This document shows, one piece after another, positions 1 through 26,445 of a stretch of 26,445 nucleotides of DNA. This stretch comes from a virus (taxonomy: Duplodnaviria; Caudoviricetes): positions 1 to 26,445 of the IMG/VR virus record IMGVR_UViG_3300025778_000070, one strand, 5' to 3'. The number at the start of each line of letters is the position of its first letter. Within the stretch, counting starts at the first letter, position 1. The translations under genes were made by a program, and so were the position numbers. The notes beneath the pieces were generated by a model. It saw nothing but the letters and a program-made list of their open reading frames with translations, was not told the origin of the DNA and did no database searches.

Positions 1-663
1 TCCATCTACAGACTGCCTACAAACACCTTCCCAGACTGTTGCATAGGCTTCTGGGTCTCTAGCCCTCAAAGCATCCTTTTCAAGCCTCAATGTCTCTGGA
101 AACCAAGGATTGTCAGACCAATTGATCTTGACTACTTGGGCATCTTGTGGAGGATGGAGGATAAACCTTTGATAGGTATTGTCAGACTCTAGCTCTGGGT
201 TAAAACTCACCCAAATCTCTGACTTTTCCTTCCTAATCGTAGGAATTAGCACATCCCAGCTTCTAGCACTGACGCTTTGTCCCTCCTCACACCAACAAAT
301 GTCAACACCCTCATAGGACTTGACGTTTGCTACGTTGTTCTTGAGGCCTACAAAGTTGATTTCAGTCCCATTCTTGCCTCTAATAGTCCTGTCAGTGATT
401 TCATAGAAGTCTATCAAGCCCATTGCCAGTATCTGGTCACTCAAGAGCTTATGGACTGAATCTTTGATGGATGTCTGAAACTCACGAGTACAAAGTATGC
501 GTAAAGGCTTGACAGCTCCTTGGATCAGCAATGCCCTAGCAATGCCCCATGACTTTGCTCCACCTCGACCGCCCCAGAGCACCTTATACCTCGATGGCTT
601 AAACAAGCACTCTAGTTTCTCAGGAAACTCAACCTTGTTGATTACCTCTTGGATGCTACTCAT
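1..663 (-). CDS. terL: Terminase large subunit, PBSX/Terminase_3 type (N-terminal ATPase part; runs off the left edge)
   Basis: Not in the ORF track; translated by hand from ATG at 663, overlapping the terS stop: MSSIQEVINKVEFPEKLECLFKPSRYKVLWGGRGGAKSW...ILCTREFQTSIKDSV...KSYEGVDICWCEEGQ...LIPTIRKEKSEIWVSFNP. Walker A (GGRGGAKS), Walker B (ICWCEE) and coupling motif (SFNP) are present. Confidence 0.95.
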   Translation of the reverse strand, partial: MSSIQEVINKVEFPEKLECLFKPSRYKVLWGGRGGAKSWGIARALLIQGAVKPLRILCTREFQTSIKDSVHKLLSDQILAMGLIDFYEITDRTIRGKNGTEINFVGLKNNVANVKSYEGVDICWCEEGQSVSARSWDVLIPTIRKEKSEIWVSFNPELESDNTYQRFILHPPQDAQVVKINWSDNPWFPETLRLEKDALRARDPEAYATVWEGVCRQSVDG

Positions 664-1045
664 CTGCCTTGACAAATGTGACTTGGATAGATGGAATCAA
701 TGGTGTGCCATTCTCACCTGTAATCTCTTGCTTGACACTCTCACGATACTTCTTGGGAAAGCGTGCCGCCATACTCCTCGACCATATCGAGGCATTCAAC
801 TTTGCACCATCCTTGTGCTCCAACATGTATGCCTGAGCTTGATCTTCCCACCAATGTAACTCTTTAGCTTTAGCTTCTTCCAAGGCTTGCATAAATTCTG
901 GGTAAGTATCACGCCATAAGTAAATAGTTCTAAGCGCAAACCCTAACATTCCTGCAATTTGCTCTGTACTTTTGCCCAGAGCACCCAACTCTACAACCTT
1001 ATCGCAAAAGGCTGGGTCATAGTCAGTTGGTCTACCTGCTGTCAT
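656..1045 (-). CDS. terS: Terminase small subunit
   Basis: N-terminal GRPTDY plus HTH-like segment, C-terminal EITGENG.P; directly upstream of and overlapping terL. Confidence 0.85.
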   Translation of the reverse strand: MTAGRPTDYDPAFCDKVVELGALGKSTEQIAGMLGFALRTIYLWRDTYPEFMQALEEAKAKELHWWEDQAQAYMLEHKDGAKLNASIWSRSMAARFPKKYRESVKQEITGENGTPLIPSIQVTFVKADE

Positions 1046-1197
1046 TGTGGTTCTTCAGTTGGTTGTGGAGGTTTAGGAGCTTGTGCTTGGGCTTCTGCAA
1101 CCATTTTGTTCAATAGAGTTTGCATGTCCCTGATCTTGTGCTCTAGGCTTGCAATGATCAAATTTAGTTCTTGGGTTTCATGTGTAAATTTAAACAT
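1042..1197 (-). CDS. Hypothetical 51-aa coiled-coil protein
   Basis: Hand-translated MFKFTHETQELNLIIASLEHKIRDMQTLLNKMVAEAQAQAPKPPQPTEEPQ; ATGA overlap with terS, abuts the upstream gene. Confidence 0.7.
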   Translation of the reverse strand: MFKFTHETQELNLIIASLEHKIRDMQTLLNKMVAEAQAQAPKPPQPTEEPQ

Positions 1198-1341
1198 TTA
1201 CTTTTTTTCCTTTTTCTTTTGTGCTTCACGTTTTTCTGAGTATGCAATCGCCACAGCCTGTTTTACAGGTTTGCCAGCTTTGACCTCAGTTGCTATGTTT
1301 TTCTTGAATGCTTCTGGTTTGGTTGATTTGATTAATGGCAT
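1198..1341 (-). CDS. Small basic phage protein (47 aa)
   Basis: Hand-translated [47 protein letters not shown]; fills the gap exactly with TAA-ATG junctions on both sides. Confidence 0.75.
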
Positions 1342-1614
1342 TTAACAGTTCCAATTCTTTAATGATGCTTTGGCTCGTTCTGCTGGTCCTTTTGCATTCT
1401 TGACCACTCCTTCCATCCTTGCACAGAAACTTGCTTTTCTACCCTCATCCTTTTTAGTCTTTGGGTTTGGAGCTGGTGCTTTAAGATGTGATCCATTCTT
1501 GGCATTGTATTCAGCTCTGCCTTTAGCAGTCATGCCAGCACCAGATTCAGTAGAGTTGTAGGTCTTGCCTTTGCCTACAGTCTTGTGCTCTATGGGCTTA
1601 TCATGCTTCTTCAT
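1342..1614 (-). CDS. Small basic phage protein (DUF6321-like, from memory)
   Basis: GMTAKGRAEYN...LKAPAP...RKASFCARM...SLKNWNC pattern typical of a conserved small phage family; operonic packing. Confidence 0.75.
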   Translation of the reverse strand: MKKHDKPIEHKTVGKGKTYNSTESGAGMTAKGRAEYNAKNGSHLKAPAPNPKTKKDEGRKASFCARMEGVVKNAKGPAERAKASLKNWNC

Positions 1615-1766
1615 TTTTTGGCAGTCTTAGCTGATTGTTTAAAAGCCTGAGCAGTAGGAGCACCCTTAGACCCTACCTTACGCATTTTTTCTACAGGCTT
1701 ACCCTCAGCCTTTTCTTCTTTTATACGTTTTTGTTTTGCATGAATGTTATCGTATAGTCCAACCAT
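1611..1766 (-). CDS. Small Lys-rich phage protein (51 aa)
   Basis: Hand-translated MVGLYDNIHAKQKRIKEEKAEGKPVEKMRKVGSKGAPTAQAFKQSAKTAKK; ATGA overlap downstream, abuts the GroES stop. Confidence 0.75.
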   Translation of the reverse strand: MVGLYDNIHAKQKRIKEEKAEGKPVEKMRKVGSKGAPTAQAFKQSAKTAKK

Positions 1767-2024
1767 TTAAACCTCCATTACTGCACAAATGTCTGCTTCT
1801 TGTATGATCTGGTAGTCCTGACCATCAATCTTTTGTGTAGGCCAGTCTAAGTAGTCTCCATTGCCATATTTGATGAGATCACCAACTTGGCATTGGTCAA
1901 CATCTGGACCTATTGCAACAATCACACCCTCGTTAAAGGGTTCTTTGTTATCAATGTAAATAATATCAGAAATGTTTCTGACGTGTGGCTTGACCACAAC
2001 ACGATCAAACAGAGGTTTTAGCAT
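1767..2024 (-). CDS. groES: GroES/Cpn10-like co-chaperonin
   Basis: MLKPLFDRVVVK...GVIVAIGPD...VGD.I.YG...IDGQDYQIIQEADICAV matches the Cpn10 pattern. Start moved to ATG 2024 (GGAG-type RBS upstream). Confidence 0.85.
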   Translation of the reverse strand: MLKPLFDRVVVKPHVRNISDIIYIDNKEPFNEGVIVAIGPDVDQCQVGDLIKYGNGDYLDWPTQKIDGQDYQIIQEADICAVMEV

Positions 2025-2265
2025 TTGGCCTTCTCCCTCTTTTTGGACTCGCAACTACTGGTAATTCAATCAGTTTGCGACTCATGGTAGAAAAAACACC
2101 TGAATCACATGACTCAGGTGAAGTCTTGGCAACTGCCTCCAAGCTCTTTGCAAATTCTCCACACCATTCATTTTCATGTCTGTTTTGGTAAGTAGGAAAT
2201 CTTCTACAACTACCTAAATTACTGCCCATGAAATAAACGCATGTCTTACAATTGTTTTCAGCCAT
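2005..2265 (-). CDS. Small Cys-rich (CxxC...C...C) putative metal-binding protein
   Basis: CKTCVYF...GSCRRFP...EWCGEF; ATG 2265 is preceded by GAGAGG. Confidence 0.65.
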   Translation of the reverse strand: MAENNCKTCVYFMGSNLGSCRRFPTYQNRHENEWCGEFAKSLEAVAKTSPESCDSGVFSTMSRKLIELPVVASPKRGRRPNAKTSV

Positions 2266-2290
2266 CGAGTGCCCTCTCACTTGTTGGTTA

Positions 2291-2334
2291 GAAAGCCCTT
2301 TAGTCCTACATGACTTTAGGGCTTTCGATTTTTA
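2291..2334. terminator. Intergenic stem-loop, possible bidirectional terminator or attenuator
   Basis: GAAAGCCCT(2291-2299)...AGTC-ctacat-GACT...AGGGCTTTC(2318-2326); short T-tracts follow on both strands. Confidence 0.5.
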
Positions 2335-2667
2335 CATGTCCTGAACGTGAGGTATACGTTTGTGTTCGTAAACAGTAGCTTCTGATGTGCCACCCTTCAT
2401 TTCACCCAAACGCCCATCGTGATGACCCATGTGGCTTGCTTCACGCTCACCAATGCCATCAGCCTTACCCATGCCAACTCCACCCATGATAGGCCTTTTA
2501 CGCTCTCCTGAGGTATCAGAAGACAATGCACCCTTGGGAGCTTTTTCACCTGACATGCCAGTCTTAAAGGTCTCAGTATCCTCTTTAGGAACTCTGACCT
2601 TTTTCATGCCAGTCATGTCACTTGATGTAACACCCTTTGGCTCTTTTTCCATTTTTGGATAACCCAT
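2332..2667 (-). CDS. Hypothetical Gly/Lys/Met-rich, probably disordered protein
   Basis: 111-aa ORF with AAGGA RBS, in operon orientation. Confidence 0.7.
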   Translation of the reverse strand: MGYPKMEKEPKGVTSSDMTGMKKVRVPKEDTETFKTGMSGEKAPKGALSSDTSGERKRPIMGGVGMGKADGIGEREASHMGHHDGRLGEMKGGTSEATVYEHKRIPHVQDM

Positions 2668-2686
2668 TTTTAAATCCTTGCAAGGT

Positions 2687-3016
2687 TTATGGTATGTATA
2701 CAGCCTTCATTACCCTTTGAGGCTTACCACTTCTACCATTTCTTCTGTCTCCAGTGTCAATGATGAGCTTCTTCCTCAATAGGGCTTGATACCTAGCTGT
2801 AACACTACTATAGGGCAAATGATTCAGTTCTGCAAGCACTTCATCAGAAATACATCCATCTGGATGGCTTCTAATGACCTCCCAGACGATTTTTTCTAGG
2901 CTTTTGGTATCTACAGACACAGATGCCTCTTTTGACGTGTCTATGGCATCCTTACGCACCAAGAACTTGGGAATTGTGCCAAAAGCAGGCAAGCCCATCA
3001 TATTGAATAAGTCCAT
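2687..3016 (-). CDS. Winged-helix DNA-binding protein
   Basis: DTSKEA...IVWEVIRSHPDGCISDEV...YSSVTARYQALLRKKLIIDTGDRR.GRSGKPQRV is a wHTH pattern; GAGG RBS. Confidence 0.7.
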   Translation of the reverse strand: MDLFNMMGLPAFGTIPKFLVRKDAIDTSKEASVSVDTKSLEKIVWEVIRSHPDGCISDEVLAELNHLPYSSVTARYQALLRKKLIIDTGDRRNGRSGKPQRVMKAVYIP

Positions 3017-3024
3017 GTTTCACC

Positions 3025-3288
3025 TCAAAAAGGAATATTGTCATCTTCAGGAATGTAGTTAGGCCTTGCTTGACGAGGCTTCTGAAAGTCATCTTGTGGC
3101 TTTGGATCATTGATGTAAGCCCATCCATCCCAGCCTCCCTCCTTGAGAGGTGTACAGTCCAATTTAAGCATTGGTCCATTCTTGGTTTCAATAACTGATC
3201 CAATTCTTGTGTACCTGTTCTTTTTCATGCCCTCAGCATTGGTGTAAGAACCTGTGATTACGCTAATCTCTTTTAATACTTTACTCAT
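3025..3288 (-). CDS. Small SSB-like protein
   Basis: Beta-rich body, acidic C-terminal tail EDDNIPF (SSB-type tip), adjacent to the exonuclease and ERF. Confidence 0.6.
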   Translation of the reverse strand: MSKVLKEISVITGSYTNAEGMKKNRYTRIGSVIETKNGPMLKLDCTPLKEGGWDGWAYINDPKPQDDFQKPRQARPNYIPEDDNIPF

Positions 3289-3896: not shown

Positions 3897-3913
3897 GTGT
3901 TTTTCTCCTTTAG

Positions 3914-5371: not shown

Positions 5372-5434
5372 TATGGTCTCCAAATAAACATATCTAACAA
5401 AATAACGATCACTGCGATTAGGTATACGCATAAT

Positions 5435-5638: not shown

Positions 5639-5646
5639 AAGAATTA

Positions 5647-5850: not shown

Positions 5851-5861
5851 TTCTAATCTCC

Positions 5862-6023: not shown

Positions 6024-6038
6024 TTTTGCTTCTTTCTT

Positions 6039-6066: not shown

Positions 6067-6074
6067 ATGTATGA

Positions 6075-6429: not shown

Positions 6430-7146
6430 ATGCACTATTACCAGTTTCATATTGGTGACTACAAGTCACATACGCATCATTTAAATGTCATAGAAGATTG
6501 TGCTTTACGCAGACTTCTTGACCATTACTACCTCCATGAATCTCCCATAAAGCAACGCAATATTGCTAGACAAATTGGGATGTTGGAATATGAAGCAGAA
6601 GTTTTGTCCATTTTGGATGAGTTTTTCATTTCCACAGAAAATGGCTTCGTAAATCCAAGGGCAGATGAGGAAATTGCCAATTACCACTCTAAGGTTGACC
6701 AAGCATCTAGAGCTGGGAAAGCATCTGCTCAACGTAGGTTGAACACTCGTTCAACAGAAAGTGAACAGACGTTCAACGCCCGTTCAACGGGCGTTCAACC
6801 AACCATTAACCATGAACCATTAACCAAGAACCATATATATAGTGATTTTGAAAAAATACTGAAAACAAAGCGAATACCCTTAACTGACACACTCATAGCA
6901 TCTATTCAACTTGAGGCTGACAAGGCTAAATGGTCAATCGAGGATGCTTTAAAAGAATGCTGTATTCGAGGATGGTCCACATTTAAGGCAGACTGGGTTA
7001 TCAAGCCTGACATCATTCACCAGACAGTTCCTAGCAAACAAGGCAGAGACCCAACCCTTATAAAGCTAGAAAATGATGCCAAAAACGCAGTTTCAATGCC
7101 TGATGAGATAAAAGCTAAATTTAAGATGATTAAGGGAAAAGTATGA
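6430..7146 (+). CDS. Replication initiator, YdaU/DUF1376 family
   Basis: MHYYQFHIGDYKSHT.HL...E...LRRLLD.YY N-terminus, central iteron-encoded linker, C-terminal ..RGW.TFKADW domain. Confidence 0.85.
   Translation: MHYYQFHIGDYKSHTHHLNVIEDCALRRLLDHYYLHESPIKQRNIARQIGMLEYEAEVLSILDEFFISTENGFVNPRADEEIANYHSKVDQASRAGKASAQRRLNTRSTESEQTFNARSTGVQPTINHEPLTKNHIYSDFEKILKTKRIPLTDTLIASIQLEADKAKWSIEDALKECCIRGWSTFKADWVIKPDIIHQTVPSKQGRDPTLIKLENDAKNAVSMPDEIKAKFKMIKGKV
6726..6835. repeat. Iteron array / probable origin of replication inside the initiator gene
   Basis: Seven units at an 11-bp period (6726-6799; exact CGTTCAAC at 6748, 6770, 6781, 6792), then five 7-bp AACCAnn repeats (6801-6835) and an AT-rich stretch. 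Confidence 0.75.
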
Positions 7147-8225
7147 AATTAATATCGACAATTGAACAAGACGAGATTACTAAGAAATTATCACAATCAT
7201 TTGATTATGAATTTGATGGTTCAGTTTCTTTTCAAGTACCCCTATTTGATGTTCCTGAACAATTTCAAATAGGCTTAATCGTAGGAGCTTCTGGATCAGG
7301 CAAGTCTAGTATCCTAAATACGATTGGTAAGGCTTCTAAAATCGAATGGAACAGCTCCAAAGCAATTTGTAGTCATTTTGCTACCTCAGATGAGGCTCAA
7401 GACAAATTAAACGCTGTAGGGCTTAATTCAATCCCTTCATGGCTTAAACCTTATCATGTTTTGTCCACAGGAGAAAGGTTTAGGGCAGATTTGTCTAGAT
7501 CATTGGTTGACAATGCAATCATTGATGAATTTACCAGTGTTGTTGACAGAAATGTAGCCAAGTCTTGCTCTTATGCAATCAATAGGTACATCAGAAAGTC
7601 AAACATTCAAAAAATGGTGTTTGCTTCTTGCCATTACGACATCATAGAATGGCTTCAACCAGATTGGGTTTTTGATACCAATACACACCGACTTACAGTC
7701 GGAAGGGGGTTAGAAAGGCCATCTTTACAGTTGGAAGTCGTTCCTTGCAATACCGAGGCATGGACAATCTTTTGCAACCATCACTATCTCTCATCAAAGC
7801 TCAATAAAGGTTCACGATGTTGGCTCGCAACATGGGAAAACCAAGTTGTTGGATTTGCCTCAGCTATCCCTTTTCCCTCTGGATCACTGAAAAACGCATG
7901 GAAAGGCCACAGAACAGTGGTTTTACCTGATTTCCAAGGATTAGGCATTGGTGTACGATTAAGTGATGCAATAGGTCAAATATTTGTAAATGAGGGTTAC
8001 AGATATTTCAGCAAATCAAGTCATGTCAGATTAGGTGAATATAGAAACAACAGCCCTAAATGGAGACCAACAGCTCACAACATGAAAGACAGAAAACAAT
8101 ACTATAAAAAATTAAACGATATAGCCAATGGCGTATCTACAACTAAAGACTTTTATTCATCTGAATTGCGTAAAAAACATGCTTCAAGGATTTGTTATTG
8201 CCATGAATACATCGGAATTTGTTGA
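7143..8225 (+). CDS. ABC-type ATPase fused to a GNAT-fold (Mom-like) acyltransferase
   Basis: Walker A GASGSGKS, signature LSTGE, Walker B IIDE, H-loop SCH; C-terminal HHYL and RTVVLPDFQGLGIG (acyl-CoA-binding motif A); no TM segments. Confidence 0.85.
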   Translation: MKLISTIEQDEITKKLSQSFDYEFDGSVSFQVPLFDVPEQFQIGLIVGASGSGKSSILNTIGKASKIEWNSSKAICSHFATSDEAQDKLNAVGLNSIPSWLKPYHVLSTGERFRADLSRSLVDNAIIDEFTSVVDRNVAKSCSYAINRYIRKSNIQKMVFASCHYDIIEWLQPDWVFDTNTHRLTVGRGLERPSLQLEVVPCNTEAWTIFCNHHYLSSKLNKGSRCWLATWENQVVGFASAIPFPSGSLKNAWKGHRTVVLPDFQGLGIGVRLSDAIGQIFVNEGYRYFSKSSHVRLGEYRNNSPKWRPTAHNMKDRKQYYKKLNDIANGVSTTKDFYSSELRKKHASRICYCHEYIGIC

Positions 8226-9193: not shown

Positions 9194-9540
9194 TGTATCC
9201 TAAAACCCAATATATTCGCTCTAAGCACCTTTTACAGCTCGTTGCGATGATGAATTGCCAAAGGTGTGGGTTTCATTTGGCACAGGCTTGTCACTCAAAT
9301 TGGCATGGAGGAAAGGGTAGAGGAATAAAGGCTAGCGATAACTATATCGCCGCGCTCTGCCAGACCTGCCACCACGACATCGACCAAGGCCATCTAATGA
9401 CCAAGCAAGAAAGAATGCACGAATGGTATCAAGCTCACCTAAAGACCTTGCACTTCCTCTTGATCACTGATCAATGGCCTCGCAACATCCCAGTCACTGA
9501 CCTCTATTTAGCCTTTTCTGAGGCTGGGAATACCTGCTGA
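9190..9540 (+). CDS. Zn-binding HNH-like putative nuclease (DUF968/YbcO/Ref-like)
   Basis: CQRCG...ACHSN...GKGRGIKASD...ALCQTCHHDID. Confidence 0.75.
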   Translation: MMYPKTQYIRSKHLLQLVAMMNCQRCGFHLAQACHSNWHGGKGRGIKASDNYIAALCQTCHHDIDQGHLMTKQERMHEWYQAHLKTLHFLLITDQWPRNIPVTDLYLAFSEAGNTC

Positions 9541-13244: not shown

Positions 13245-15253
13245 TGTGAATCCTTAATTGACAAACCTGTATAGGGATTTATTGATTTTTCAGCAGTTGC
13301 ACCACTTCTAGCTTGTTTTACCTTTTCTTTAGCAAATTGTACAAATGGAATTGATGCTCCACCAGTTTTTGATGCTAAAAAACTTTCGCCTATGTTCTGT
13401 GCCGCTTGCCCCAAATACCCAGACAATGTATTTGAATGATTAAATACACCTGTTTTTGGTTGTGAAACTTTTGCACCAAGTCCATTAATTTCAGCCAAAT
13501 CTTGTGCTCCTTCTGCACCATGAATATCATAAAGTTTTTCTTTTTGTTTATCTAAAAACTTATTTAATGATGCTGGTGTAAAGTTTTTACTTTCACCAAC
13601 AAAACCAGCTTTTTCTTTTGCTGAAATTATGTGCCCAGCTTTAATGGCTTCATGTGCCAAACTATCTTTACCCACTTCATCAATCATTCGTCTGACTGCT
13701 TCAGGAGTTGCATTAGTTACATATTTGTCATGGAACTTAGAAGCATTCAGACTTTCTAAGCCTTTTTCAGCTTCTTCTGGTGAGACTGCCTCACGCACTG
13801 CCGCTTTATAGGCTGGATTATTCTTAATCACATTCATACGTTCAGCATACAAAGCTCTTGCTTGATCTGCTAAAGGCTTAATAGATTGCAAATTATCTGG
13901 CAATGGCAATGTCTCAAGTTGTTGACGAATGATGTGTGCCGCAGCCCTACCAGTCCCTTTTGGGTTATCCCTCATTTCACTTGCTAAATTACTTCTTAAA
14001 TTTTCGTAATCTTCAAAAGTCATGCTTCCATTTTTAACCAAATCGTCAATGTCACGTTTAATGCTTGGTAAATGTTCTTCATAAGCATTCTTTTTTAAGG
14101 CACGTTTTAATTCTGATTCAATATTTGTTTTTAATTGTGTAACATCAATAGGAAATTGACCAGCATTAGCATCTTCTAGCTTTTTATAGGCTTGTTTAAT
14201 TGCTTGTAATCTTTGGTTATCCTTTTCAACTAAACCATTTATTTCAGCTTGTCCTATTCCACTTGGTGAACGATCAGTAACATTTTCAGCATGTTTGTCT
14301 AATAAATTATCAAATGCTTCAGAAAATTGTTTGGGTTGATTTTCAAAATGTTGTCCTAAAGTATCTTGATGTTTACTTCTATTGTTCCATTCTTCAGCAT
14401 ATCTTGAAGTATGATTTGTTCTTTGACCAGCAGTCAAATCTATACCATGTTTTTCTTCTAACTTTCTAGTTTCTAAAGCAGGTAAATTAACTTCTTCTAG
14501 TGGAATATTACTAGCAACTGCTTTTAGTTCTGGACTAGCATCAGCAAGTGCTGATTGTAGTTGTGTAGCACGTTCAGTAACTGCTGAACCACCACTTTGC
14601 AAACCACTCATAGGTTGTTGTTCAATTCTTACTGTGCCAACTTTATTCTTTATTGCATTAGCTGTTGATTTTGGTAAATTTCCAAATTGTGACCAAAGTT
14701 GCTGTGTAGCTCGACCTGCTAATGGTGTCATACCCATAAGTTCAGGAACACCTGCTTGAGGTATTTTTAAAGGTTCAACTTTACCTTGTAGCCATTCCAA
14801 ATAGTCTTGCCCTTCCTTAGTGCTAGGTTGTAGCCAATCTGCACTTTTGAGAAATTCTGATGCAATACGCTCCCCAATAGGGCCGGGGGCCTTACCTGTC
14901 GAAATTGCTTCTGGCAAACTTTGTGCAACTCCCTTAACAGTTGCTACTAAAGGCAAAACAGCACCTGACACTAATGACAATCCAGCTTCACCAGCACCTA
15001 TAGCCTTTTTACTAAATGAATCTAAAAATTGCTCATATTGACTGCGATTTTGTGTCGATTTAGTAGGAGCTGATGGTTTATAGTTTTTGATCGTACTAAT
15101 GTCAGGATCATTTTCATAATCATGGTATTCAAGATTTGGATTTTTACCTGACATTGTGCTTTTTTTAGGCGAAATTAAGCTAGTATCCATTCCTGATGGA
15201 GTGTAACTTTTTAAAACAGCTAGGTCTGGGTCTGATTCATAATCGTAAGCCAT
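13241..15253 (-). CDS. Large DNA-ejection (internal virion) protein, P22 gp16-like position
   Basis: 670 aa, helical, Ala/Gln/Lys-rich; third gene of the ejection trio by synteny. Confidence 0.6.
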   Translation of the reverse strand: MAYDYESDPDLAVLKSYTPSGMDTSLISPKKSTMSGKNPNLEYHDYENDPDISTIKNYKPSAPTKSTQNRSQYEQFLDSFSKKAIGAGEAGLSLVSGAVLPLVATVKGVAQSLPEAISTGKAPGPIGERIASEFLKSADWLQPSTKEGQDYLEWLQGKVEPLKIPQAGVPELMGMTPLAGRATQQLWSQFGNLPKSTANAIKNKVGTVRIEQQPMSGLQSGGSAVTERATQLQSALADASPELKAVASNIPLEEVNLPALETRKLEEKHGIDLTAGQRTNHTSRYAEEWNNRSKHQDTLGQHFENQPKQFSEAFDNLLDKHAENVTDRSPSGIGQAEINGLVEKDNQRLQAIKQAYKKLEDANAGQFPIDVTQLKTNIESELKRALKKNAYEEHLPSIKRDIDDLVKNGSMTFEDYENLRSNLASEMRDNPKGTGRAAAHIIRQQLETLPLPDNLQSIKPLADQARALYAERMNVIKNNPAYKAAVREAVSPEEAEKGLESLNASKFHDKYVTNATPEAVRRMIDEVGKDSLAHEAIKAGHIISAKEKAGFVGESKNFTPASLNKFLDKQKEKLYDIHGAEGAQDLAEINGLGAKVSQPKTGVFNHSNTLSGYLGQAAQNIGESFLASKTGGASIPFVQFAKEKVKQARSGATAEKSINPYTGLSIKDSQ

Positions 15254-16845
15254 TAAAAATCACCTTTTTCTAGTCGTTTCATGTTAAACATCTTTTCTTT
15301 CAATTTAGCATGATCGCTTGGACTTATTCCACTTAGTATTTCATTAACTTTTTCTTTTTTTGCTTTTGGTGTTAAATTGCTTGAATTAACATTTTGAATC
15401 ATAAATATTCTTGGATCGTAATTATTTTTCCAAGCCTCTTTAAATGCTAAAGTATTAGCATGACCATTAATATCACCTTTGTTTTTAATGTATTTATCAT
15501 AAGCAGTTGAATATTTTTCAAATGCTGTACTTGTAGCATCAGTTCTGTCAATAATTGACTGTAAAGCACCAGCAGTAATGTTTTCACTACCATTAGCTAA
15601 TTGATTCATTTGTTGACCATGTACATTGTCAACACCCATAATTGCACCTTGTTGAATAGAATTTTGTGCAAGGTTTTTAATCAACTTGTCTAATTGTTCA
15701 TTACCAGCAAGCCATTTACCAGCACCACGCAAAACTTGTTCTGGTTTACTTCCTGCTGTAGCTTCAATGTTTTGTCTAATTAAATTTGTTGTTTGTTTAG
15801 CATCTTGAGCTAATGTTGCTTTGTCAATAACTTGGGCATGATGACTTACACCAGCATCATAAGCAGATTGTTGTTGCTTATTAAGTTGTGTAATTCCACT
15901 AGTAGGAATAGTCATTAAATCATGTACAAGTGGTTCAAATCTAGATTTAGGTTGTGACATTTGTTGTGGCGTAATACCTTTGGGTAAAGGTCCTGCCATT
16001 CCTACTGTACCTTTAATATTTGCCAACATATCATCTTTTGTTGGAATTTTCTTTTCTTCTGGGTTAGCTTGTCCTACTGGCACAGGATTGCCATTAGCAT
16101 CAATTTGATATTTCACTCCATTCAATTCAAAAATACTACTTGGATTTGCACCTTGCAATGTTGTTGCAGTAGCAGATAATGGATTTACTTTAATCAATTG
16201 ACCTTGAGCATTGGTTGTAATATTTGGAGCTTGTTGTGTTAACAAACCTTGTGCTCCAGTTCCAATTCTTGTGAAGTTTTGATAAATGTTAGGTAATTGT
16301 TCTGGGTTATTGTCAATTTTTGCAGTGATATGACCAAAATGCTCTAATGATTCAGATGGATCAAGACCTGCTTTCACTGCTGTTTCAAAATCTTCTGCAT
16401 TTAATTGATGTAATCTTTTTTTGGCTGATTGGGCAATTTTTTCATCAGGTGATTTGGCTAACTTTGTTAATCCAAGTATTTCTGGATCAGATGCTCTTGC
16501 TGATGAAATATCAAGTAATCTGCTTAATTTTTCTCCTGATAACTTTAATTTAGCTGATCCAGCTTGTGATTGTGCTGTCTGTGATTCTGATAGAGCTTGT
16601 GCAATTTTTGGATCAACTGTGCCTTCAGCTAATTTAGTTGCCGCTGCTGATTGTCGTAATAATTGTGGTTTCTGTTGTTCAGCAAATTCAGTTTCAGCTT
16701 GTTGTTGCCTTAAAGCCAAAGGATTAACTTGTTGTGCTTGCTGATAGGCTTGAGCACTTCTAGCAAAGTTCATAATATCAGCTAGACTCATTCCTTGTGG
16801 AGCTTGAGTCTTAGATGCTACATCTGAAAAATTAAAGTCTGCCAT
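15253..16845 (-). CDS. DNA-ejection protein, P22 gp20-like position
   Basis: 530 aa, Gln/Ala-rich helical N-terminus; synteny. Confidence 0.6.
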   Translation of the reverse strand: MADFNFSDVASKTQAPQGMSLADIMNFARSAQAYQQAQQVNPLALRQQQAETEFAEQQKPQLLRQSAAATKLAEGTVDPKIAQALSESQTAQSQAGSAKLKLSGEKLSRLLDISSARASDPEILGLTKLAKSPDEKIAQSAKKRLHQLNAEDFETAVKAGLDPSESLEHFGHITAKIDNNPEQLPNIYQNFTRIGTGAQGLLTQQAPNITTNAQGQLIKVNPLSATATTLQGANPSSIFELNGVKYQIDANGNPVPVGQANPEEKKIPTKDDMLANIKGTVGMAGPLPKGITPQQMSQPKSRFEPLVHDLMTIPTSGITQLNKQQQSAYDAGVSHHAQVIDKATLAQDAKQTTNLIRQNIEATAGSKPEQVLRGAGKWLAGNEQLDKLIKNLAQNSIQQGAIMGVDNVHGQQMNQLANGSENITAGALQSIIDRTDATSTAFEKYSTAYDKYIKNKGDINGHANTLAFKEAWKNNYDPRIFMIQNVNSSNLTPKAKKEKVNEILSGISPSDHAKLKEKMFNMKRLEKGDF

Positions 16846-18364: not shown

Positions 18365-21300
18365 TAGTTCTCTCCTTGACTAGCCTTGAGGTTAGCAGAA
18401 ATGATCGTAGCATTCACTGGATCAGTTACCACTACCTCAAAAATCTTGTCCCTAGACCATCCTAAACGCCTCCAGATGGCACGATTCTTGTACTTGCCAA
18501 TTTTACCAATGGATACCCAGTGCTCCTTAGACCATGTTGATCCACCATCATTGGACCATCTGAGCATGGCTTTAGGATCAACACCTTGTGAACCTTCAAA
18601 GGCAGGACTAGGAATATTGTAGGCAGGAAACTGTAAAGTCAAAGCATTCAGCAAGGCAGTAGCTGTTTGAGCACTTGTAACTTGATGGTTTGCTGTGTAC
18701 TGTGTTGGATAGCCTCCAGAGCCATTTACAGGTGTTCCTACAGTGACTTGAGTTGTGGTAACCCTGTTAGTCAAAGCAGTAGTTAAATTGACTGCAAAAG
18801 GCTGTATTGACGTTGGAGGTGCAAGTGTGTCGTTAGTGTTGTACCAAATGTAGAAGTGGCACTTGTTAGTGTAAAAGCTAGGAATGGTTTCCCATGTAGC
18901 TAACTGATAGTAAGGACTTGCTGTCAGTGGTGTTGTGTTTGCTGTGTAGGTGTTGATCAATCCTACACCAAATGATCCAATAGGATTCGTAGCATCACCA
19001 GCACCAATGGTTACTAAGTTCATTGGACCATACAAATTCATACATGCTTTAGGCCATGTGCCATTTGTCGTAGCTTGTGCCATGACACCTTCAATTGCAA
19101 GGTAACCACCAGCACTGTTGCCAGCTACCATAAGGCCAAATTGTGCTACTTGTTGTTGTAGACTTGCCCACAAAGCATTTTGACTTGGTGCTCCTAAATA
19201 ACCAGCATTAGGATTTAACAAGAAATTGATAACTTGAGCAATGTCATTTACGTCATTAGGATAGTCACCAGATGGAGTTAGCCTGTAGTTTGTAGAAATA
19301 ACGACATAGTTAGCTAACACAATAGGATTGTAAATAGCAGTGTCACTAGCCTTGTCACCACCACTCCATCCACCACCATGTATCCAAAGGACAACTCCAT
19401 TAGGCATTTGACCATTCTTGTTGACAGCATCCCATGAGCTTGGGCTAATGATGTCTACTTTTTGAAGTGGGTCAGTCCCATAGGGTACGTCAGAAATTGT
19501 TGCACCTAAAGAAGGAGCACCTAAAGAAACTCCTGAAAAAGAAGTTGGAGTAGAGGATGGTATAGAGTAGCCTTGGCCTGTTTGAGAATTTCCACTGATT
19601 GCGTATCCTGAGATGGCAATGCCAGCTATGCCTGAAGTGGTATAACTTGCATTTGGGTTTGACAATCCCACTGCTGGCATAAACTGAATCTGCAATTCCT
19701 CAAAATATTGACGTTGCAAATCAGAAACCAAATGTGGTGCTCTCCTTAGTCTCCTAATCTCTTGACCATTGTCAGTGTAGTTATTAGGGTCTAACTCGTA
19801 CAAATTACCATTTTGGTAGTCACCAACATAAACTAAACCATTAAATACAGCACAACAGTTGCCACGATGTCTGTGGTAAACATTATTATTATCTACAGCA
19901 AGCCACTTGTGCCACATGCCTGTGGTGTTGTCCCATACCCATGTCAAGTCAATACTTGGAAAGGTAATTACATAGCACTCATGGCCTTCTAGTTGATAGG
20001 TCCAAGCAATAGCATCTGAGATGTTTTGGTTGACAAGGGTGTTTTCAACTGCGTGAGTGGAGATGCGAGTAGGCACATACCCATTCATCATTACAACTTG
20101 GCCTTGGCCTCGTTGGTTTCTAGAGAGGTATGCAAAGGAGTTGCCAACACGAGAGACTGAGAATTTGGCAATGATGCCATGCTGTGTGGAGGTGCCGGGG
20201 ATTCGCTGGAAAGGAAACGGAAAGCTCCCCACATCCACCCACACCTCACTCGATACCTCACCTAGTAAGTACACCTCACGATGGTCAACAATTAGTGATA
20301 CCAAGTTATCTGGAGCACCATCCTTGCTACTAAACTGCAAAGGAGCTGACAATGTGCTCAACAAATTACTCGATCCCCATTGCTGTGTATTTGGCCTGTT
20401 ATAGACAAATATATTGTCCACAATGTCCACCACATCAGCACCTGTAAACGCTCCATCTGTGCTTGGCAAAATCGAAAAAGCAGAAGCAGTCAGTGTTGAT
20501 AAGTTACCAAGTGGTGATATGTTAGCAAGGGCAGATGCTCCTGAACCTGATCCACCACTAAAATTCAAAGCAGGGTTTGATGTATAAAATGATCCACCAT
20601 TAGCAATTGAATAATCATTGTTAAGGCTGAACGTCAAGGTTATAGAAGCACCTTTGCCTGTTCCACCACTGAATGATGTAGCACCACTTGGAGCAACTGT
20701 GTAAGTTCCTACATTGTAAATAGAGACACCAGTAATCACACCACTAGAAACTGTTGTGACCTTGAGCTGACAAGCAGTTGTGTAAGTTCCACCAAAGCCA
20801 GTGATGATGTCACCAACTGTGTATCCTGTTCCACCAGATGTAATTGTTGTAGACACAACTCCTATTGAGTTCCAAGTCACTGATGCAACAGTACCACCAA
20901 AAGGAGGGTTAGCAATTGTGACTGAAGGGACTGTTGTATAACCTGTGCCAGCATTTAATAGATTAATTGCTACAACACTGCCATTGGTTACATAGTTGTT
21001 GATGGAGTAAAGACCTAAACCATTTCCACTTGTAGGGACTGAGGTAATGATCGTGTTTGGAGGTATGTTTGTGCCTGTGATGGTCTGACCAACTACCAAA
21101 GGTCCAGAAATAATGCCTGTGACATTGATCTGATAACCAGAGATATTACCAATGAAAGAAGTGGTAATGTAGGAGCTGATGTAAACACTGTACCTGTTAA
21201 CACCATCTGTGATCATCACATAAAGGCCATTGTCAGCAATGCCAACTCTGCCTGTTGTAGTGGTGAGGTTACCAAGGGTAAAAAGGTTGCCAAGAGTATC

Positions 21301-21552
21301 AAGAGCATAAACACCAGAGCCACAGACTGCAATCAAGTATTTACCACCAGAAAGGGTGCGTAGGCCTCGAACTTCAGCAGTTTGGGGAAGGGCAGTTAAC
21401 AGCGTGAGACCCGGCGTAGGGTAGAGTGCCACCACCCCCCTTTGACCTGCTTGCTTGAGTGGGTCTATTTCAGGGCGAAAGTTAATACACTCCTGATCAT
21501 CTTGGTAGATGGATGGAGAAGTATACGATGGGCCAACAAACCCAAAGTCCAT
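18364..21552 (-). CDS. P22 gp10-like packaged-DNA stabilization/tail hub protein with inserted beta-repeat domains and an alpha/beta-hydrolase domain
   Basis: Core motifs CINF.PE, LYPTPGL, DG.PD, E...LGE.S.EVW, P.RISTHAVE, Y..EGH..YV..FP, WH, LRWSNDGG.TW, G..G.Y..RAIWRRLG..R; hydrolase HGGGW, GNSAG, D908, H956. Confidence 0.9.
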   Translation of the reverse strand: MDFGFVGPSYTSPSIYQDDQECINFRPEIDPLKQAGQRGVVALYPTPGLTLLTALPQTAEVRGLRTLSGGKYLIAVCGSGVYALDTLGNLFTLGNLTTTTGRVGIADNGLYVMITDGVNRYSVYISSYITTSFIGNISGYQINVTGIISGPLVVGQTITGTNIPPNTIITSVPTSGNGLGLYSINNYVTNGSVVAINLLNAGTGYTTVPSVTIANPPFGGTVASVTWNSIGVVSTTITSGGTGYTVGDIITGFGGTYTTACQLKVTTVSSGVITGVSIYNVGTYTVAPSGATSFSGGTGKGASITLTFSLNNDYSIANGGSFYTSNPALNFSGGSGSGASALANISPLGNLSTLTASAFSILPSTDGAFTGADVVDIVDNIFVYNRPNTQQWGSSNLLSTLSAPLQFSSKDGAPDNLVSLIVDHREVYLLGEVSSEVWVDVGSFPFPFQRIPGTSTQHGIIAKFSVSRVGNSFAYLSRNQRGQGQVVMMNGYVPTRISTHAVENTLVNQNISDAIAWTYQLEGHECYVITFPSIDLTWVWDNTTGMWHKWLAVDNNNVYHRHRGNCCAVFNGLVYVGDYQNGNLYELDPNNYTDNGQEIRRLRRAPHLVSDLQRQYFEELQIQFMPAVGLSNPNASYTTSGIAGIAISGYAISGNSQTGQGYSIPSSTPTSFSGVSLGAPSLGATISDVPYGTDPLQKVDIISPSSWDAVNKNGQMPNGVVLWIHGGGWSGGDKASDTAIYNPIVLANYVVISTNYRLTPSGDYPNDVNDIAQVINFLLNPNAGYLGAPSQNALWASLQQQVAQFGLMVAGNSAGGYLAIEGVMAQATTNGTWPKACMNLYGPMNLVTIGAGDATNPIGSFGVGLINTYTANTTPLTASPYYQLATWETIPSFYTNKCHFYIWYNTNDTLAPPTSIQPFAVNLTTALTNRVTTTQVTVGTPVNGSGGYPTQYTANHQVTSAQTATALLNALTLQFPAYNIPSPAFEGSQGVDPKAMLRWSNDGGSTWSKEHWVSIGKIGKYKNRAIWRRLGWSRDKIFEVVVTDPVNATIISANLKASQGEN

Positions 21553-23465: not shown

Positions 23466-24433
23466 TAAATAAAGCCTCCATGCAAAATCCAACCAGCATC
23501 ACGAGTCTTGGTTGAGGTTAATACGTTGTCGTACCTTGCCAAAATGGGAGGTCTCATATTAGTTCTCTTGACTGTGCTCTTGCCTGTCATTGCATTCTTC
23601 TGAATCATTGCAATCTGAGTAGCACTAGCCTTGCCATACATAGGCATCAAATACTCTGCTAGATTCCACCTCAAAGCCATGTTATAGCCCTCTGGCAATG
23701 CAATAACATCGTACATTGTTGTGAATCGAGTAAAGATGTTGTCAGCAAACAAGTGGACTTCACCTTGACTAGGATTAGGCCACAAAAAGATGTTTCCTAG
23801 TGTCTCTGTAGGCTGATAATAGACTGCTTTAGGCCAAGGACCATTGAGTGTTTTAAGCCCAATCATCTCGTATTCTTCAACATTGAGCACTGAAACTGGG
23901 TAATCTAATCTACCTCCAGTGATGGCAACACCATTGGAATTGGTGTTTACCCCTACAAAAGCACTATTAATGGTCAATGGTCTCTTGTAATAGCCCACAA
24001 TCGTAGTAGATGGCACGTTTTGGCTGACATTGAGCAGATATGTGCCAGCTTCAAGGATTTGTCCACCAGCTCCAGTGCCAAATCCAACAATCGTAGTTCC
24101 TGCAATGATTCCTGTGCCTTGCAAGACCATATTCATGGATATAGCACCAGAATTGATGGAGGAAACAGTTAGGATATTGCCATTGATTGAGCCAACAAAG
24201 TTAGCCTGAATTGATCCAGTTGGACCTATTGAGTATTGGGTTTGGCCTTGAGTGACATTGAAGACGATTTCAGTCTTGTAGTAGACCATTTGAGACTCGT
24301 TAGACCATTGATCTAACATGTCTAATAGCATGTCAAAAGCATCTTGGGCAGATTCTGGTGTGGGAATCTCCCCTGCCTCAAGTGCTCCAATGTCCTTGAG
24401 TGCTCTGCTAACAATGTCAATAGGCATCACCAT
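23465..24433 (-). CDS. P22 gp4-like head-to-tail adaptor with inserted beta domain
   Basis: [23 protein letters not shown]...L.DM.DQW.NE N-terminus; LPEGY..ALRWNLA..L.P.YG C-terminus. Confidence 0.8.
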
Positions 24434-24436
24434 ACT

Positions 24437-24739
24437 TTAGCCCCCAAAAGGTTTGAAAGTGTTGAAAACCCAAGGCAAAGCAGTTTTATCCTTTTGCACT
24501 AGCTGTTTTTCTAGATTTGATTGTATGATATTTACACCATCTTGGGTAGTTTCTGCCACTATCCAATCAATAATATTTTGCTCTTTTACCTCTGCCAAAG
24601 GTGTTTTAAGCTCTGGATTGGTAAATTGATGTGTGCCTTGTTGCTCAACTGTATTTGTACCATCAGTTAAAGACACAAAAAACTCAGCATGGGTAATCAA
24701 ATCCCCATCAGTTTCTATTGATAGTATTTTGAAGTTCAT
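24437..24739 (-). CDS. Tail-fibre-associated hypothetical protein
   Basis: P..EV.EQ.IIDW...LPW pattern, next to tail fibre genes. Confidence 0.65.
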   Translation of the reverse strand: MNFKILSIETDGDLITHAEFFVSLTDGTNTVEQQGTHQFTNPELKTPLAEVKEQNIIDWIVAETTQDGVNIIQSNLEKQLVQKDKTALPWVFNTFKPFGG

Positions 24740-25260
24740 GGTGTTGGAGTAGGTGTAGGAGCTACATAATTAGGATCGTGAGGCCAAATAACTGTACTAG
24801 CAGTAATTAGGCTAGAAATGTCTGTACTTGCATTGATGGCTGTTTTTGTACTTGATGCCAATGTCCTGACTGACTCTCTCCAAGTCTTCCAGTTGTCAGC
24901 CATAGCAGTACCTGTCTCAAGAGCTTTGATGCTCATGTAATCAGTTGGAGACAACAAAGAAAATGCTTGTTGGTCAATGGCTGATGTTGCGTTGGCTTTC
25001 AAACCAGCTAAGTCTTTAGGTGTTGAAGTGAAATTAATGTCCACCACGTTTCCATTAACTGTTGGTGCAGACTCTGTAACCCAATAATACTTATCGTCTG
25101 GCCTAGCACCATAAACCACTTCCATCACACCCAAGGCATTCTTTTCTTCTTGGGTTGCTAGTTGAAACCAGTTGTTAGCGTAGGTCACATCATTAACTGT
25201 GAACTGACTACCCTCTTGGATAATCTGTTGTACTGTGTTGTCTTTTACGATTGCAAACAT
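24736..25260 (-). CDS. Tail fibre assembly chaperone-like protein
   Basis: Y..NW......EEK..LG, YYWV, L.PTDY...KA.E.G......W..WR..VR, WP.DP; AAGGAG RBS. Confidence 0.7.
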   Translation of the reverse strand: MFAIVKDNTVQQIIQEGSQFTVNDVTYANNWFQLATQEEKNALGVMEVVYGARPDDKYYWVTESAPTVNGNVVDINFTSTPKDLAGLKANATSAIDQQAFSLLSPTDYMSIKALETGTAMADNWKTWRESVRTLASSTKTAINASTDISSLITASTVIWPHDPNYVAPTPTPTP

Positions 25261-25269
25261 GATTGCTCC

Positions 25270-26445
25270 TTAGAATGCGTTACTGTAAGCAAATGGATTT
25301 GATGCAAAGGCGGCATAAATGTAGGTATAGCCACTTAAATTAGTGTCGCCACCATTGTAGTCACCAACTAATTGAAATCCATTTGATAGACCATTGATAC
25401 CATTTGAACCTGTTGATGCCTCAGCGTTTGAACTATTGGGTTGCAATCTTAATGCTTCAAGATTGTATGGACTTCTTGATGTGTCAAATACTGTCCAACT
25501 ACCGCCACCACTAGGGCCTGACAATCTAACCATTACCCATTTAGGTTGAAATCCAGTATAAATAAATTGATTAGATGAATTACCAGAATAAGTACCAAAC
25601 GAACTAAACCCAGCTACTGGTGCGAAACAATATGAAACAACATTGTCTCCATTTGTATACCAAGACGATCCAATCGAAAATACTGATGATGTGGGCGTAG
25701 TGTTATTCCAAACATTTTCAACGTCTGGAACGGCAGATGAGTTTAATATTGCACGTTTTGTATTTCCAAGTGAAACATGATAAACATCCCAATTATATGT
25801 TCCGCTTGTTCTGTCTTTTTGGATAATCATTTGTGGAACTGCACCAAGTCCATGCCCTATTGTTCCACTTCCGTTATATGTCCAAGTAACAACACTAAAC
25901 CCAGCAGTAGTGCTTACAGATACTGTTGAAGTAATTGATCCATTGGTGTTTGAACTTGATGAACCAGCACCAGCTTGCCATTGCCATGCAACATAACTAT
26001 CTGAGGCAAAGTTCAAACCTTGATCTGAACCAAGTGTAAAACCATTGCTATTAAAAGCCGTCACACCACTTTCAGTTGTTTCCGCAGTAGTATTATTGCT
26101 ATACAATGCTTTTGATACACCCCTGACAGCATCAAAAAGCCTGTTATTAAGTGCTGAGGTTCTATCTTTACCCCAAACCAAATCAGGTTTAAACCCACCA
26201 GCATTTGTAATTGATTGAGTTGAGCTATTACCAGTATACAAAGTAGCATCCATATACTTATTACCCTGTGCAATAGTAGGTGTGGGTAAGTTGTATGTGT
26301 TGAGTGCGTTATATCCTGATGGTGGTGTGTAAGTAAATGGTTGTTGACCAAAGTTTGCAGTACCTGTTGATGCACCACCACTTGTCCGTGTGGACATGGT
26401 AAAGAAATATGTTCCTGATGTTAAACCTGTAAATGCAGTACCTTG
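25270..26445 (-). CDS. Large virion/receptor-binding protein, C-terminal part (SPRY/ConA-like end plus repeated beta domains); 5' end outside the window
   Basis: The frame stays open to the right edge (QGTAFTGLTSGTYFFTM...); ANFGQQPF.YTPPSG, YTGN, FKPDLVW.K.R, YVAWQW.AG, GHGLGAVP.MII.K.R, YTGFQPKWVM, YIYAAFA. Confidence 0.8.
   Translation of the reverse strand, partial: QGTAFTGLTSGTYFFTMSTRTSGGASTGTANFGQQPFTYTPPSGYNALNTYNLPTPTIAQGNKYMDATLYTGNSSTQSITNAGGFKPDLVWGKDRTSALNNRLFDAVRGVSKALYSNNTTAETTESGVTAFNSNGFTLGSDQGLNFASDSYVAWQWQAGAGSSSSNTNGSITSTVSVSTTAGFSVVTWTYNGSGTIGHGLGAVPQMIIQKDRTSGTYNWDVYHVSLGNTKRAILNSSAVPDVENVWNNTTPTSSVFSIGSSWYTNGDNVVSYCFAPVAGFSSFGTYSGNSSNQFIYTGFQPKWVMVRLSGPSGGGSWTVFDTSRSPYNLEALRLQPNSSNAEASTGSNGINGLSNGFQLVGDYNGGDTNLSGYTYIYAAFASNPFAYSNAF

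What the first reader, a model, noticed from the sequence alone, without database searches (positions are those of the whole stretch)
1..26445. CCNGG, GCNGC and CCG/CGG nearly purged; surviving 5-mers only where the protein forces them
Seen (manual scan, may miss a few): I found no CCWGG. CCSGG occurs three times (14883, 20195, 21410), each a Pro-Gly codon pair. GCNGC occurs at about 11 loci (near 765, 9349, 12568, 13401, 13800, 13938, 16640, 17029, 17047, 17581, 25310), every one an Ala-Ala pair. These are written GCG-GCN or GCC-GCN despite AT-rich codon usage, and GCWGC appears only in the two Ala-Ala-Ala runs. CCG+CGG total about 30, against several hundred expected at ~40% GC, while other CG contexts, GATC and GGCC are common. 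Avoidance appears to reach the protein level: Pro-Gly is very rare, and the canonical GroES AVGPG reads AIGPD. Inference: strong, long-term pressure from host m5C methyltransferase/restriction (Dcm/EcoRII/ScrFI-, TseI/Fnu4HI-, HpaII-like) or from modification-dependent restriction.
Basis: partly seen in the sequence, partly recalled or inferred. Interest (0 to 1): 0.7.

Follow-up and report, generated by a model that had tools for sequence, protein, structure and literature searches.

The report
Stacked DNA bans reshape phage proteins
This lake phage has removed dozens of short DNA words, likely to escape its host's DNA-cutting defences, and where two bans overlap the amino-acid pairs Ala-Ala and Pro-Gly have become rare in its proteins; one banned word, CCG, is only three letters long and matches no restriction enzyme in the list checked.

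Summary
Observation confirmed. The window is part of a freshwater P22-like phage. Against codon shuffles: CCWGG 0 (14.5 expected), GCWGC 2 (17.5), CCG/CGG 33 (222). Many other restriction sites are gone too; 39 of 64 six-base palindromes are absent.

Pro-Gly always spells CCNGG and Ala-Ala always spells GCNGC. With the W spelling and the S spelling (it contains CCG) both selected against, these are the two rarest dipeptides: AA 13 against 57 expected, PG 3 against 32. Relatives act as controls: AA is normal with one ban or none (0.67-1.12), low with both (0.24, 0.46). Conserved AA columns became mostly AS or SA, not deamination products. This fits selection, not methyl-C mutation.

CCG is purged in all flanking contexts, on both strands and across codon junctions; no listed unmodified 3-bp site matches it. 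A related clade depletes CAG instead. Host and enzymes are unidentified.

Corrections: the GroES example fails, and other CG contexts are reduced (0.69). Site avoidance is a known strategy, and the scan found AA/PG loss and three-letter purges before on other DNA.

The parts
1..26445 (.). Partial genome of a P22-like podophage, purged on both strands of CCWGG, GCWGC, CCG/CGG and many 6-bp restriction sites; GATC, GGWCC, CASTG and CATG are kept
765..769 (-). GCSGC spelling a conserved Ala-Ala in the small terminase (AA in 47 of 54 aligned hits)
9349..9353 (+). GCSGC spelling a conserved Ala-Ala in the HNH/DUF968 protein (AA in 18 of 19 aligned hits)
13938..13945 (-). Ala-Ala-Ala run holding one GCSGC and one of the two GCWGC
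16640..16647 (-). Second Ala-Ala-Ala run holding one GCSGC and the other GCWGC
14883..14887 (-). CCSGG spelling Pro-Gly in the 670-aa gene 13241-15253 (likely an ejection protein); not conserved (PG in 0 of 6 hits)
20195..20199 (-). CCSGG spelling a near-invariant Pro-Gly in the head-closure protein (PG in 52 of 55 hits)
21410..21414 (-). CCSGG spelling an invariant Pro-Gly in the head-closure protein (PG in 60 of 60 hits)
1767..2024 (-). GroES-like gene; its G-P-D is a family trait, not a result of the purge
6430..8225 (+). Replication initiator (DUF1376) plus ABC-ATPase/GNAT fusion (7143-8225); 6 of the 16 unforced CCG/CGG lie here. The slot after the initiator or before RusA holds a C5 methyltransferase in L002 and a TAGT glycosyltransferase in L005
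25270..26445 (-). DUF7483 virion gene, cut by the window end; 7 of the 16 unforced CCG/CGG; part of it appears to be shared with a co-occurring unpurged phage

Best explanation
This phage genome lacks CCWGG, nearly lacks GCWGC and CCG/CGG, and lacks many six-base palindromes, likely because host restriction defences have long selected against each word, and the overlap of these bans has likely driven Ala-Ala and Pro-Gly out of all but mostly constrained positions in its proteins. Step 1 (shown): every Pro-Gly codon pair spells CCNGG and every Ala-Ala pair spells GCNGC. Step 2 (shown): the W spellings are nearly absent and the S spellings contain CCG, which is itself purged, so no free spelling is left; survivors use the S form in 14 of 16 cases. 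Step 3 (shown by comparison, causation inferred): AA and PG fall most where both spellings are depleted, and conserved AA columns were replaced, most often by AS or SA. Step 4 (inferred): the 5- and 6-bp bans answer orthodox Type II restriction systems spread across the host population. Step 5 (inferred, weakest): CCG is read on double-stranded DNA by a further unidentified host factor with a very short site, with a graded rather than all-or-none penalty, since 33 copies remain; a short-site methylase working with a modification-dependent nuclease is my first guess.
For: Shuffle tests. 23 of 455 listed restriction sites with 5 or more expected copies are absent, counting only sites without CCG/CGG (some nested); CG-free 6-bp palindromes are absent in 14 of 37 cases against 24 of 2634 non-palindromic 6-mers. 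Dose response across groups of related loci: AA observed/expected 0.24 (window) and 0.46 (L162+L163) with both bans; 0.94, 0.91, 0.96, 1.06, 1.07 and 1.12 in six groups with one ban or none; 0.81, 0.92, 0.71 and 0.67 in four small groups. PG 0.11, 0.26, 0.25 and 0.00 with both bans, 0.48-1.04 otherwise. Columns where most relatives have AA: 7 of 29 kept, against 65% for all dipeptides (Fisher p=1e-5) and 64% for one-Ala dipeptides; kept columns are more conserved than lost ones (p=0.003); 0 of 22 losses are the deamination products VA or AT, 10 are AS or SA. Against the sister clade AA is the least retained dipeptide, 10 of 60 vs 23.2. Single-base differences at lost GCWGC fall on all five positions, 6 of 28 being C>T or G>A. 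CCG loss is on the DNA, not the mRNA or codon: 30 vs 218 across codon junctions, both orientations, 0 vs 8 in non-coding DNA. Unforced survivors cluster in two small regions, 13 of 16 in 3.0 kb. Relatives carry DNA-modifying genes at a variable slot. Avoidance of orthodox Type II sites by non-temperate dsDNA phages is established (PMC6286503).
Against: No host and no enzyme were identified; closest relatives in bacterial assemblies are 71-75% identical terminase fragments in MAGs with conflicting labels. No unmodified 3-bp site is in the Biopython REBASE list. None of 56 Burkholderiales chromosome stretches shows CCG depletion (0.77-1.50). The PG ortholog test on conserved columns is not significant (2 kept of 6, p=0.12), though PG is the least retained dipeptide against CCG-tolerant relatives (2 of 23 vs 10.1). 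Polarity is only partly resolved: at 26 columns where sisters have AA and the window does not, outgroups have AA in 10 and the window's state in 5. Not all survivors are conserved (one PG and several AA are not). The loci in each group are related and overlapping, so they are not independent samples. Alignments at 70-83% DNA identity are partly saturated, which blunts the substitution spectra. Contig L161 joins the window's sequence to 6 kb that is not purged; depth suggests an assembly chimera but no read-level test was possible.
Confidence: 0.7

Rival explanations
1. The words decay by mutation: host or phage methylases mark the cytosines, which deaminate to T, with no restriction involved.
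For: CG is low overall (306 vs 602) and CA/TG is high (4348 vs 3831) in codon shuffles. 9 of 18 single differences at lost CCWGG are C>T or G>A. Sister L002 carries its own C5 methylase.
Against: Only 3 of 28 single differences at lost GCWGC are the inner-C deamination type; at lost CCG 211 of 404 are C>T/G>A, no more than at ACG controls (242 of 423). AA became AS or SA, never VA or AT, in 22 conserved columns. Surviving AA use the rare codon GCG. Adenine-type and AT-rich palindromes are also absent.
Confidence: 0.08
2. CCG is not one target: it vanished as the sum of many 4-6 bp restriction sites containing CCG, on top of a general CG decline.
For: Relatives with intermediate CCG levels ban only some flanking contexts (L164-L171: ACCGT 0.02, ACCGC 1.71; L007/L181: mainly YCCG and CCGG). 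Listed sites CCGG, CCGC, CCCG, ACGGC and ACGGA cover 12 of 16 contexts. CG outside CCG is at 0.69.
Against: ACCGT (0 vs 31), ACCGA (2 vs 19), GCCGA (0 vs 14) and TCCGA (2 vs 12) are gone although their listed covering sites are not clearly avoided: ACWGT 63 vs 52 and TCWGA 60 vs 50 are kept. Depletion is near-uniform over unforced contexts in the window and in 10 pooled sister loci. This rival leaves the Ala-Ala/Pro-Gly mechanism intact.
Confidence: 0.35
3. CCG/CGG is a CRISPR PAM that the phage depletes to escape spacer acquisition or interference.
For: A 3-nt, double-stranded, context-free word fits a PAM; other lineages deplete other 3-mers (CAG, CTC). PAM depletion in phages has been reported (PMC4246573 abstract; PMC12174588 passages).
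Against: Host unknown and no spacer match was sought. A CCG-specific PAM appeared in none of the passages read. From recall, reported PAM depletion is mild, unlike the 85% loss here; I did not read those effect sizes.
Confidence: 0.08
4. The phage avoids CCG because one of its own enzymes (the ABC-GNAT fusion, the HNH protein or RusA) modifies or cuts that word.
For: The window encodes an ABC-ATPase/GNAT fusion of a kind predicted to acylate a DNA base (PMC7824862 passage). The nearest homologues (74-77%) also lie in CCG-poor phages, L251-L257 and L277.
Against: CCG-purged sisters L002 and L005 carry other genes at that slot. 70 of the 78 other loci with the gene have CCG at 0.33-1.08. The gene itself holds 4 unforced CCG/CGG. 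RusA and HNH orthologues occur in relatives without the ban.
Confidence: 0.07
5. The pattern is translational: the host lacks tRNAs for CCG or CGG codons, or stalls on these dipeptides.
For: Codons CCG (2 of 368 Pro) and CGG (1 of 281 Arg) are almost unused.
Against: The loss is as strong across codon junctions and in non-coding DNA, and AA is normal in sisters that keep GCWGC.
Confidence: 0.02

Closest known systems
Avoidance of orthodox Type II restriction sites by non-temperate dsDNA phages (Rusinov et al. 2018, PMC6286503; parts 1 and 3 of 5 read, plus a term search)
   Same: Near-complete elimination, on both strands, of palindromic and pseudo-palindromic sites that match listed enzymes (CCWGG AjnI, GCWGC ApeKI, GGNNCC BmiI, RGATCY BstX2I, AAGCTT HindIII; names).
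   Different: Breadth (dozens of sites at once); a 3-bp context-free ban with no listed enzyme; a measured effect on amino-acid pairs. 'amino acid', 'codon' and 'non-synonymous' occur 0 times in that paper's main text. Host enzymes are not identified here.
Synonymous-level motif avoidance (review PMC8410138; survey PMC7320823; passages read)
   Same: Local codon choice is bent to exclude a motif, for example GCG used in Ala-Ala against an AT-rich codon bias.
   Different: The passages treat avoidance with the protein held fixed; here conserved Ala-Ala columns changed at the protein level.
PAM depletion in phages (PMC4246573, abstract; PMC12174588, passages)
   Same: A two- or three-letter DNA word is under-represented on both strands.
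   Different: No host CRISPR system or spacer is known here, and the ban travels with classical 5- and 6-bp bans.
Type IV / IIM modification-dependent restriction (McrA YCGR, SauUSI-type SCNGS, LpnPI CCDG, FspEI CC; sites; the McrA and SauUSI labels are recalled)
   Same: Short GC-rich sites that overlap CCG, CCNGG and GCNGC; a graded penalty would allow some copies to remain.
   Different: Needs a methylase that marks CCG on phage DNA, which was not found; PMC6286503 reports only weak under-representation of Type IV sites; CCDG and CCDS as wholes are not avoided.

Membership tests
Type II restriction-site avoidance | dsDNA phage | tested here: met
   Terminase, ejection, head-closure and tail genes; P22 portal and coat in sister L005
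Type II restriction-site avoidance | Non-temperate lifestyle | tested here: inconclusive
   No integrase hit among 38 ORFs scanned, but the genome is partial and a Cro-like gene is present
Type II restriction-site avoidance | Missing words are known recognition sites, lost beyond codon and composition effects (5- and 6-bp words) | tested here: met
   14 of 37 CG-free palindromes absent vs 24 of 2634 non-palindromes
Type II restriction-site avoidance | Missing word is a known recognition site (the 3-mer CCG) | tested here: not met
   No unmodified 3-bp site among 1088 enzymes in the Biopython list; 4 of 16 flank contexts have no avoided covering site
Type II restriction-site avoidance | Loss on both strands | tested here: met
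   Coding-strand CCG 12 vs 84 and CGG 21 vs 136; the 5-mers are counted in both orientations
Type II restriction-site avoidance | Host encodes the matching R-M systems | not testable with these tools
   Host unknown; MvaI/BcnI-family genes occur in 15 of 401 Burkholderiales genomes but cannot be tied to this phage
Methylcytosine deamination decay | Words lost mainly by C>T or G>A at the methylated base | tested here: not met
   3 of 28 at GCWGC, 5 of 18 at the inner C of CCWGG; CCG no different from ACG control; 0 of 22 VA or AT
CRISPR PAM depletion | Short context-free word depleted on both strands | tested here: met
CRISPR PAM depletion | Host CRISPR spacers against this phage flanked by that word | not tested
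   Host unknown; no spacer search was run

The most novel reading that the evidence does not exclude
Freshwater bacteria carry an undescribed family of DNA defences that read three-base words, with one specificity for CCG/CGG and a sister one for CAG/CTG, and impose a graded cost per site. Phage lineages track them by genome-wide purges, and where such a ban stacks on a classical site it rewrites protein sequence, so phage genomes can be read backwards to predict these enzymes.
Probability: 0.3. Interest if true: 0.75.

Novelty: new variant of a known kind. Interest (0 to 1): 0.5.

Why it matters
It gives a controlled case of DNA-level defence changing protein sequence: within one phage family the same dipeptide is normal under one ban and depleted under two, and the replaced positions can be named. 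That makes the cost of restriction avoidance measurable in amino-acid substitutions. The context-free loss of CCG, with CAG lost in a related clade, predicts short-site host enzymes that methylome sequencing of lake bacteria could find. The quickly switching ban profiles could also serve to match uncultured phages to hosts.

Tried and rejected
GroES AVGPG-to-AIGPD as evidence: rejected, 0 of 10 close GroES hits have GPG. Host from prophage relatives: best hits 71-75% in MAG fragments, four of them in three genomes that a genus-level search grouped with a Limnohabitans MAG, others with unrelated labels; no isolate with a known host above 60%. Host from chromosome composition: 60 stretches fetched from a sample of 401 Burkholderiales genomes, 56 analysed (3 under 5 kb and 1 unpublished genome left out), none CCG-poor; one outlier, G117, avoided CCGG, GGNCC and CCWGG but not CCG or GCWGC. 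Polynucleobacter methylome paper PMC7522526 (passages): only a Type I motif, no match. ABC-GNAT as cause of the ban: not tied to it. Number of isoschizomers did not predict depletion among 37 palindromes (rho -0.09). The TerL tree is the quick version and the second tree timed out and was not repeated. L161 as the missing part of the genome: its first 6 kb is unpurged and likely from another phage; no contig bridged the junction, so this stays open. Ten paper searches listed no report of dipeptide depletion from site avoidance or of a CCG-specific 3-bp system; the library lacks most subscription papers and no supplements were read. PMC7560954 and PMC8565308 (passages) added nothing.
Full report
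What the window is. The 26,445 bases are the whole record G000. Pfam and PHROG scans of 38 ORFs show a partial P22-like podophage: large and small terminase, GroES, YqaJ and Erf recombination genes, Cro, a DUF1376 initiator, an ABC-ATPase/GNAT fusion, RusA, an HNH protein, a GH19 endolysin, spanin, ejection, head-closure, adaptor and tail genes. No integrase was hit. A stretch of the near-identical contig L161 is held by runs labelled freshwater metagenome. The host is unknown; terminase relatives in bacterial assemblies reach 71-75% and several are betaproteobacterial.

CCWGG 0, CCSGG 3, GCSGC 11, GCWGC 2 and CCG+CGG 33, at the stated coordinates. Every CCNGG is a Pro-Gly pair and every GCNGC an Ala-Ala pair. 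None of 200 codon-preserving shuffles fell as low for CCWGG (mean 14.5), GCWGC (17.5) or CCG/CGG (222.2), while GATC and GGCC are ordinary. Three details need correcting. CG in other contexts is reduced to 276 against 402. Sixteen CCG/CGG are not forced by the protein; 13 of them lie in two regions totalling 3.0 kb. The GroES G-P-D is shared family variation, since 0 of 10 close hits have G-P-G.

The purge is wider than reported. 39 of 64 six-base palindromes are absent (193 copies against 385). Of 455 listed restriction sites expected five or more times, 43 without CCG/CGG are below a quarter of expectation and 23 are absent, some of them nested; examples are GGNNCC 2 vs 38, RGATCY 0 vs 17.7, AAGCTT 0 vs 16.7 and the asymmetric CTCTTC 0 vs 13.9. 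CG-free palindromes are absent in 14 of 37 cases, non-palindromic 6-mers in 24 of 2634. GGWCC and CASTG, avoided in 43 and 37 of 72 long loci (the window included in the 72), are kept here.

Three separable bans. Across 160 loci fetched by terminase or adaptor likeness, 19 have CCG below 0.2 of expectation. The closest terminase relatives, L001-L006, share the CCG and CCWGG bans but keep GCWGC and spell Ala-Ala with it. L162 and L163 share all three bans. Twelve loci ban CCWGG and GCWGC but not CCG, 53 ban CCSGG only, and 7 deplete CAG/CTG instead of CCG; these last fall in one clade of the quick terminase tree, on which CCSGG and CCWGG+GCWGC profiles alternate between near-identical proteins. 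Among 78 other loci fetched through the ABC-GNAT gene, 12 lack both CCWGG and GCWGC (11 of them share only that gene with the window) and 8 are CCG-poor. The profiles thus recur in distant phages, as expected if hosts impose them.

Why the proteins changed. Pro-Gly can only be CCN-GGN and Ala-Ala only GCN-GCN. The W spelling is a banned 5-mer and the S spelling contains CCG or CGG. AA (13 vs 57.1) and PG (3 vs 31.6) are the two lowest of 400 dipeptides. In groups of relatives AA is 0.46 with both bans (2 loci) and 0.67-1.12 in the ten other groups; PG is 0.26, 0.25 and 0.00 with both bans and 0.48-1.04 in the other eight (identical proteins were merged, but loci remain related). At columns where most relatives have AA, the window keeps 7 of 29, against 2051 of 3156 for all dipeptides (p=1e-5); kept columns are the more conserved (p=0.003); 10 of 22 replacements are AS or SA. 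For PG the same test gives 2 of 6 (p=0.12), and the two kept are nearly invariant. Outgroups support loss in the window's line at 10 of 26 informative columns and the opposite at 5. Where forced, the phage takes the S form in 14 of 16 cases, so the 5-mer bans are the stronger.

Selection, not mutation. Single-base differences at lost GCWGC fall on all five positions, with 3 of 28 of the inner-C deamination type. At CCWGG 9 of 18 are C>T or G>A, 5 at the inner C. At CCG 211 of 404 are, against 242 of 423 at ACG controls. None of 22 lost conserved AA became VA or AT. Against this stand the general CG deficit and CA/TG excess, and the partial saturation of these alignments.

The CCG puzzle. The loss is on the DNA: 30 against 218 across codon junctions, in both orientations, and 0 against 8 in 751 non-coding bases. 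It covers all unforced flank contexts. The Biopython enzyme list has no unmodified 3-bp site, and ACCGT, ACCGA, GCCGA and TCCGA have no clearly avoided covering site. Some relatives ban only subsets of contexts, which keeps alive the rival that many longer sites add up. With 33 copies left, a classical cutter is unlikely (inference). None of 56 Burkholderiales chromosome stretches is CCG-poor. The ABC-GNAT fusion belongs to a type predicted to acylate DNA bases (PMC7824862, passage), but it does not track the ban, and sisters hold a C5 methylase or a TAGT glycosyltransferase in the same region.

A caution. L161 matches the window at 99.9% over 13468-25944 and its record at 100% over 1677-13500, yet its first 6 kb is unpurged (9 CCWGG, 25 GCWGC). 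In four runs that block has about 0.5-0.8 of the backbone's depth, and the shared DUF7483 piece has about their sum, which points to an assembly chimera of two co-occurring phages. No listed contig spans the junction, so a true recombinant is not excluded; it would weaken the reading. L163 carries a largely purged version of that block.

Comparison with what is known. Avoidance of orthodox Type II sites by non-temperate dsDNA phages is established (PMC6286503, parts 1 and 3 of 5; PMC12707154, passage). That survey's text does not mention amino acids or codons, and the passages read in PMC8410138 and PMC7320823 hold the protein fixed. Ten searches listed no paper on dipeptide loss or a CCG 3-bp system; the library is incomplete and supplements were not read. 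Earlier notes of this scan report complete AA/PG loss in an archaeal virus and other three-letter purges in lake phages; I did not test them.

Verdict. A real and strong case of a known strategy, with two additions: a within-family control showing that stacked bans change proteins, and an unexplained three-base ban. New variant of a known kind; interest 0.5.

Noticed in passing
L161:1-6000 (IMG/VR contig otherwise near-identical to the window): Sharp switch to unpurged sequence, 83-97% like L069; depth pattern suggests an assembly chimera through a shared DUF7483 segment.
   Followed up: partly
window 7143-8225 (+): ABC-ATPase/GNAT fusion with over 7000 homologues, of a type predicted to acylate DNA bases; sisters hold a C5 methylase (L002:1231-1959) or a TAGT glycosyltransferase (L005:3228-4094) in the same region.
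   Followed up: partly
L019, L020, L031-L033, L042, L043 (and L029): A clade that depletes CAG/CTG to about 0.25 and GAC/GTC to about 0.5 while keeping CCG.
   Followed up: partly
L058, L071, L081, L200, L201, L230, L231: CTC/GAG is the most depleted 3-mer (0.34-0.55 of first-order expectation).
   Followed up: no
L294, L300, L303, L307, L319, L322-L324, L326-L328: CCWGG and GCWGC are both absent in phages sharing only one gene with the window; hybrids CCWGC/GCWGG are kept in the window, so two linked systems seem more likely than one.
   Followed up: no
window 1-26445: CGRAG 1 vs 35 and GGNNCC 2 vs 36 in shuffles; TATAAT 4 vs 24 suggests promoter-like words are also avoided.
   Followed up: partly
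window 18364-21552 (-): Head-closure protein carries an inserted alpha/beta-hydrolase (esterase) domain at about residues 711-930; sister orthologues are about 735 aa.
   Followed up: no
window 17703-18146 (-): A second, stand-alone GNAT acetyltransferase sits among the virion genes; sisters have an unrelated 122-aa ORF there.
   Followed up: no
L012:4952-7506: ParB-domain, phosphatase/cytidylyltransferase and TAGT genes upstream of the terminase, a likely DNA-modification cassette in a CG-poor relative.
   Followed up: no
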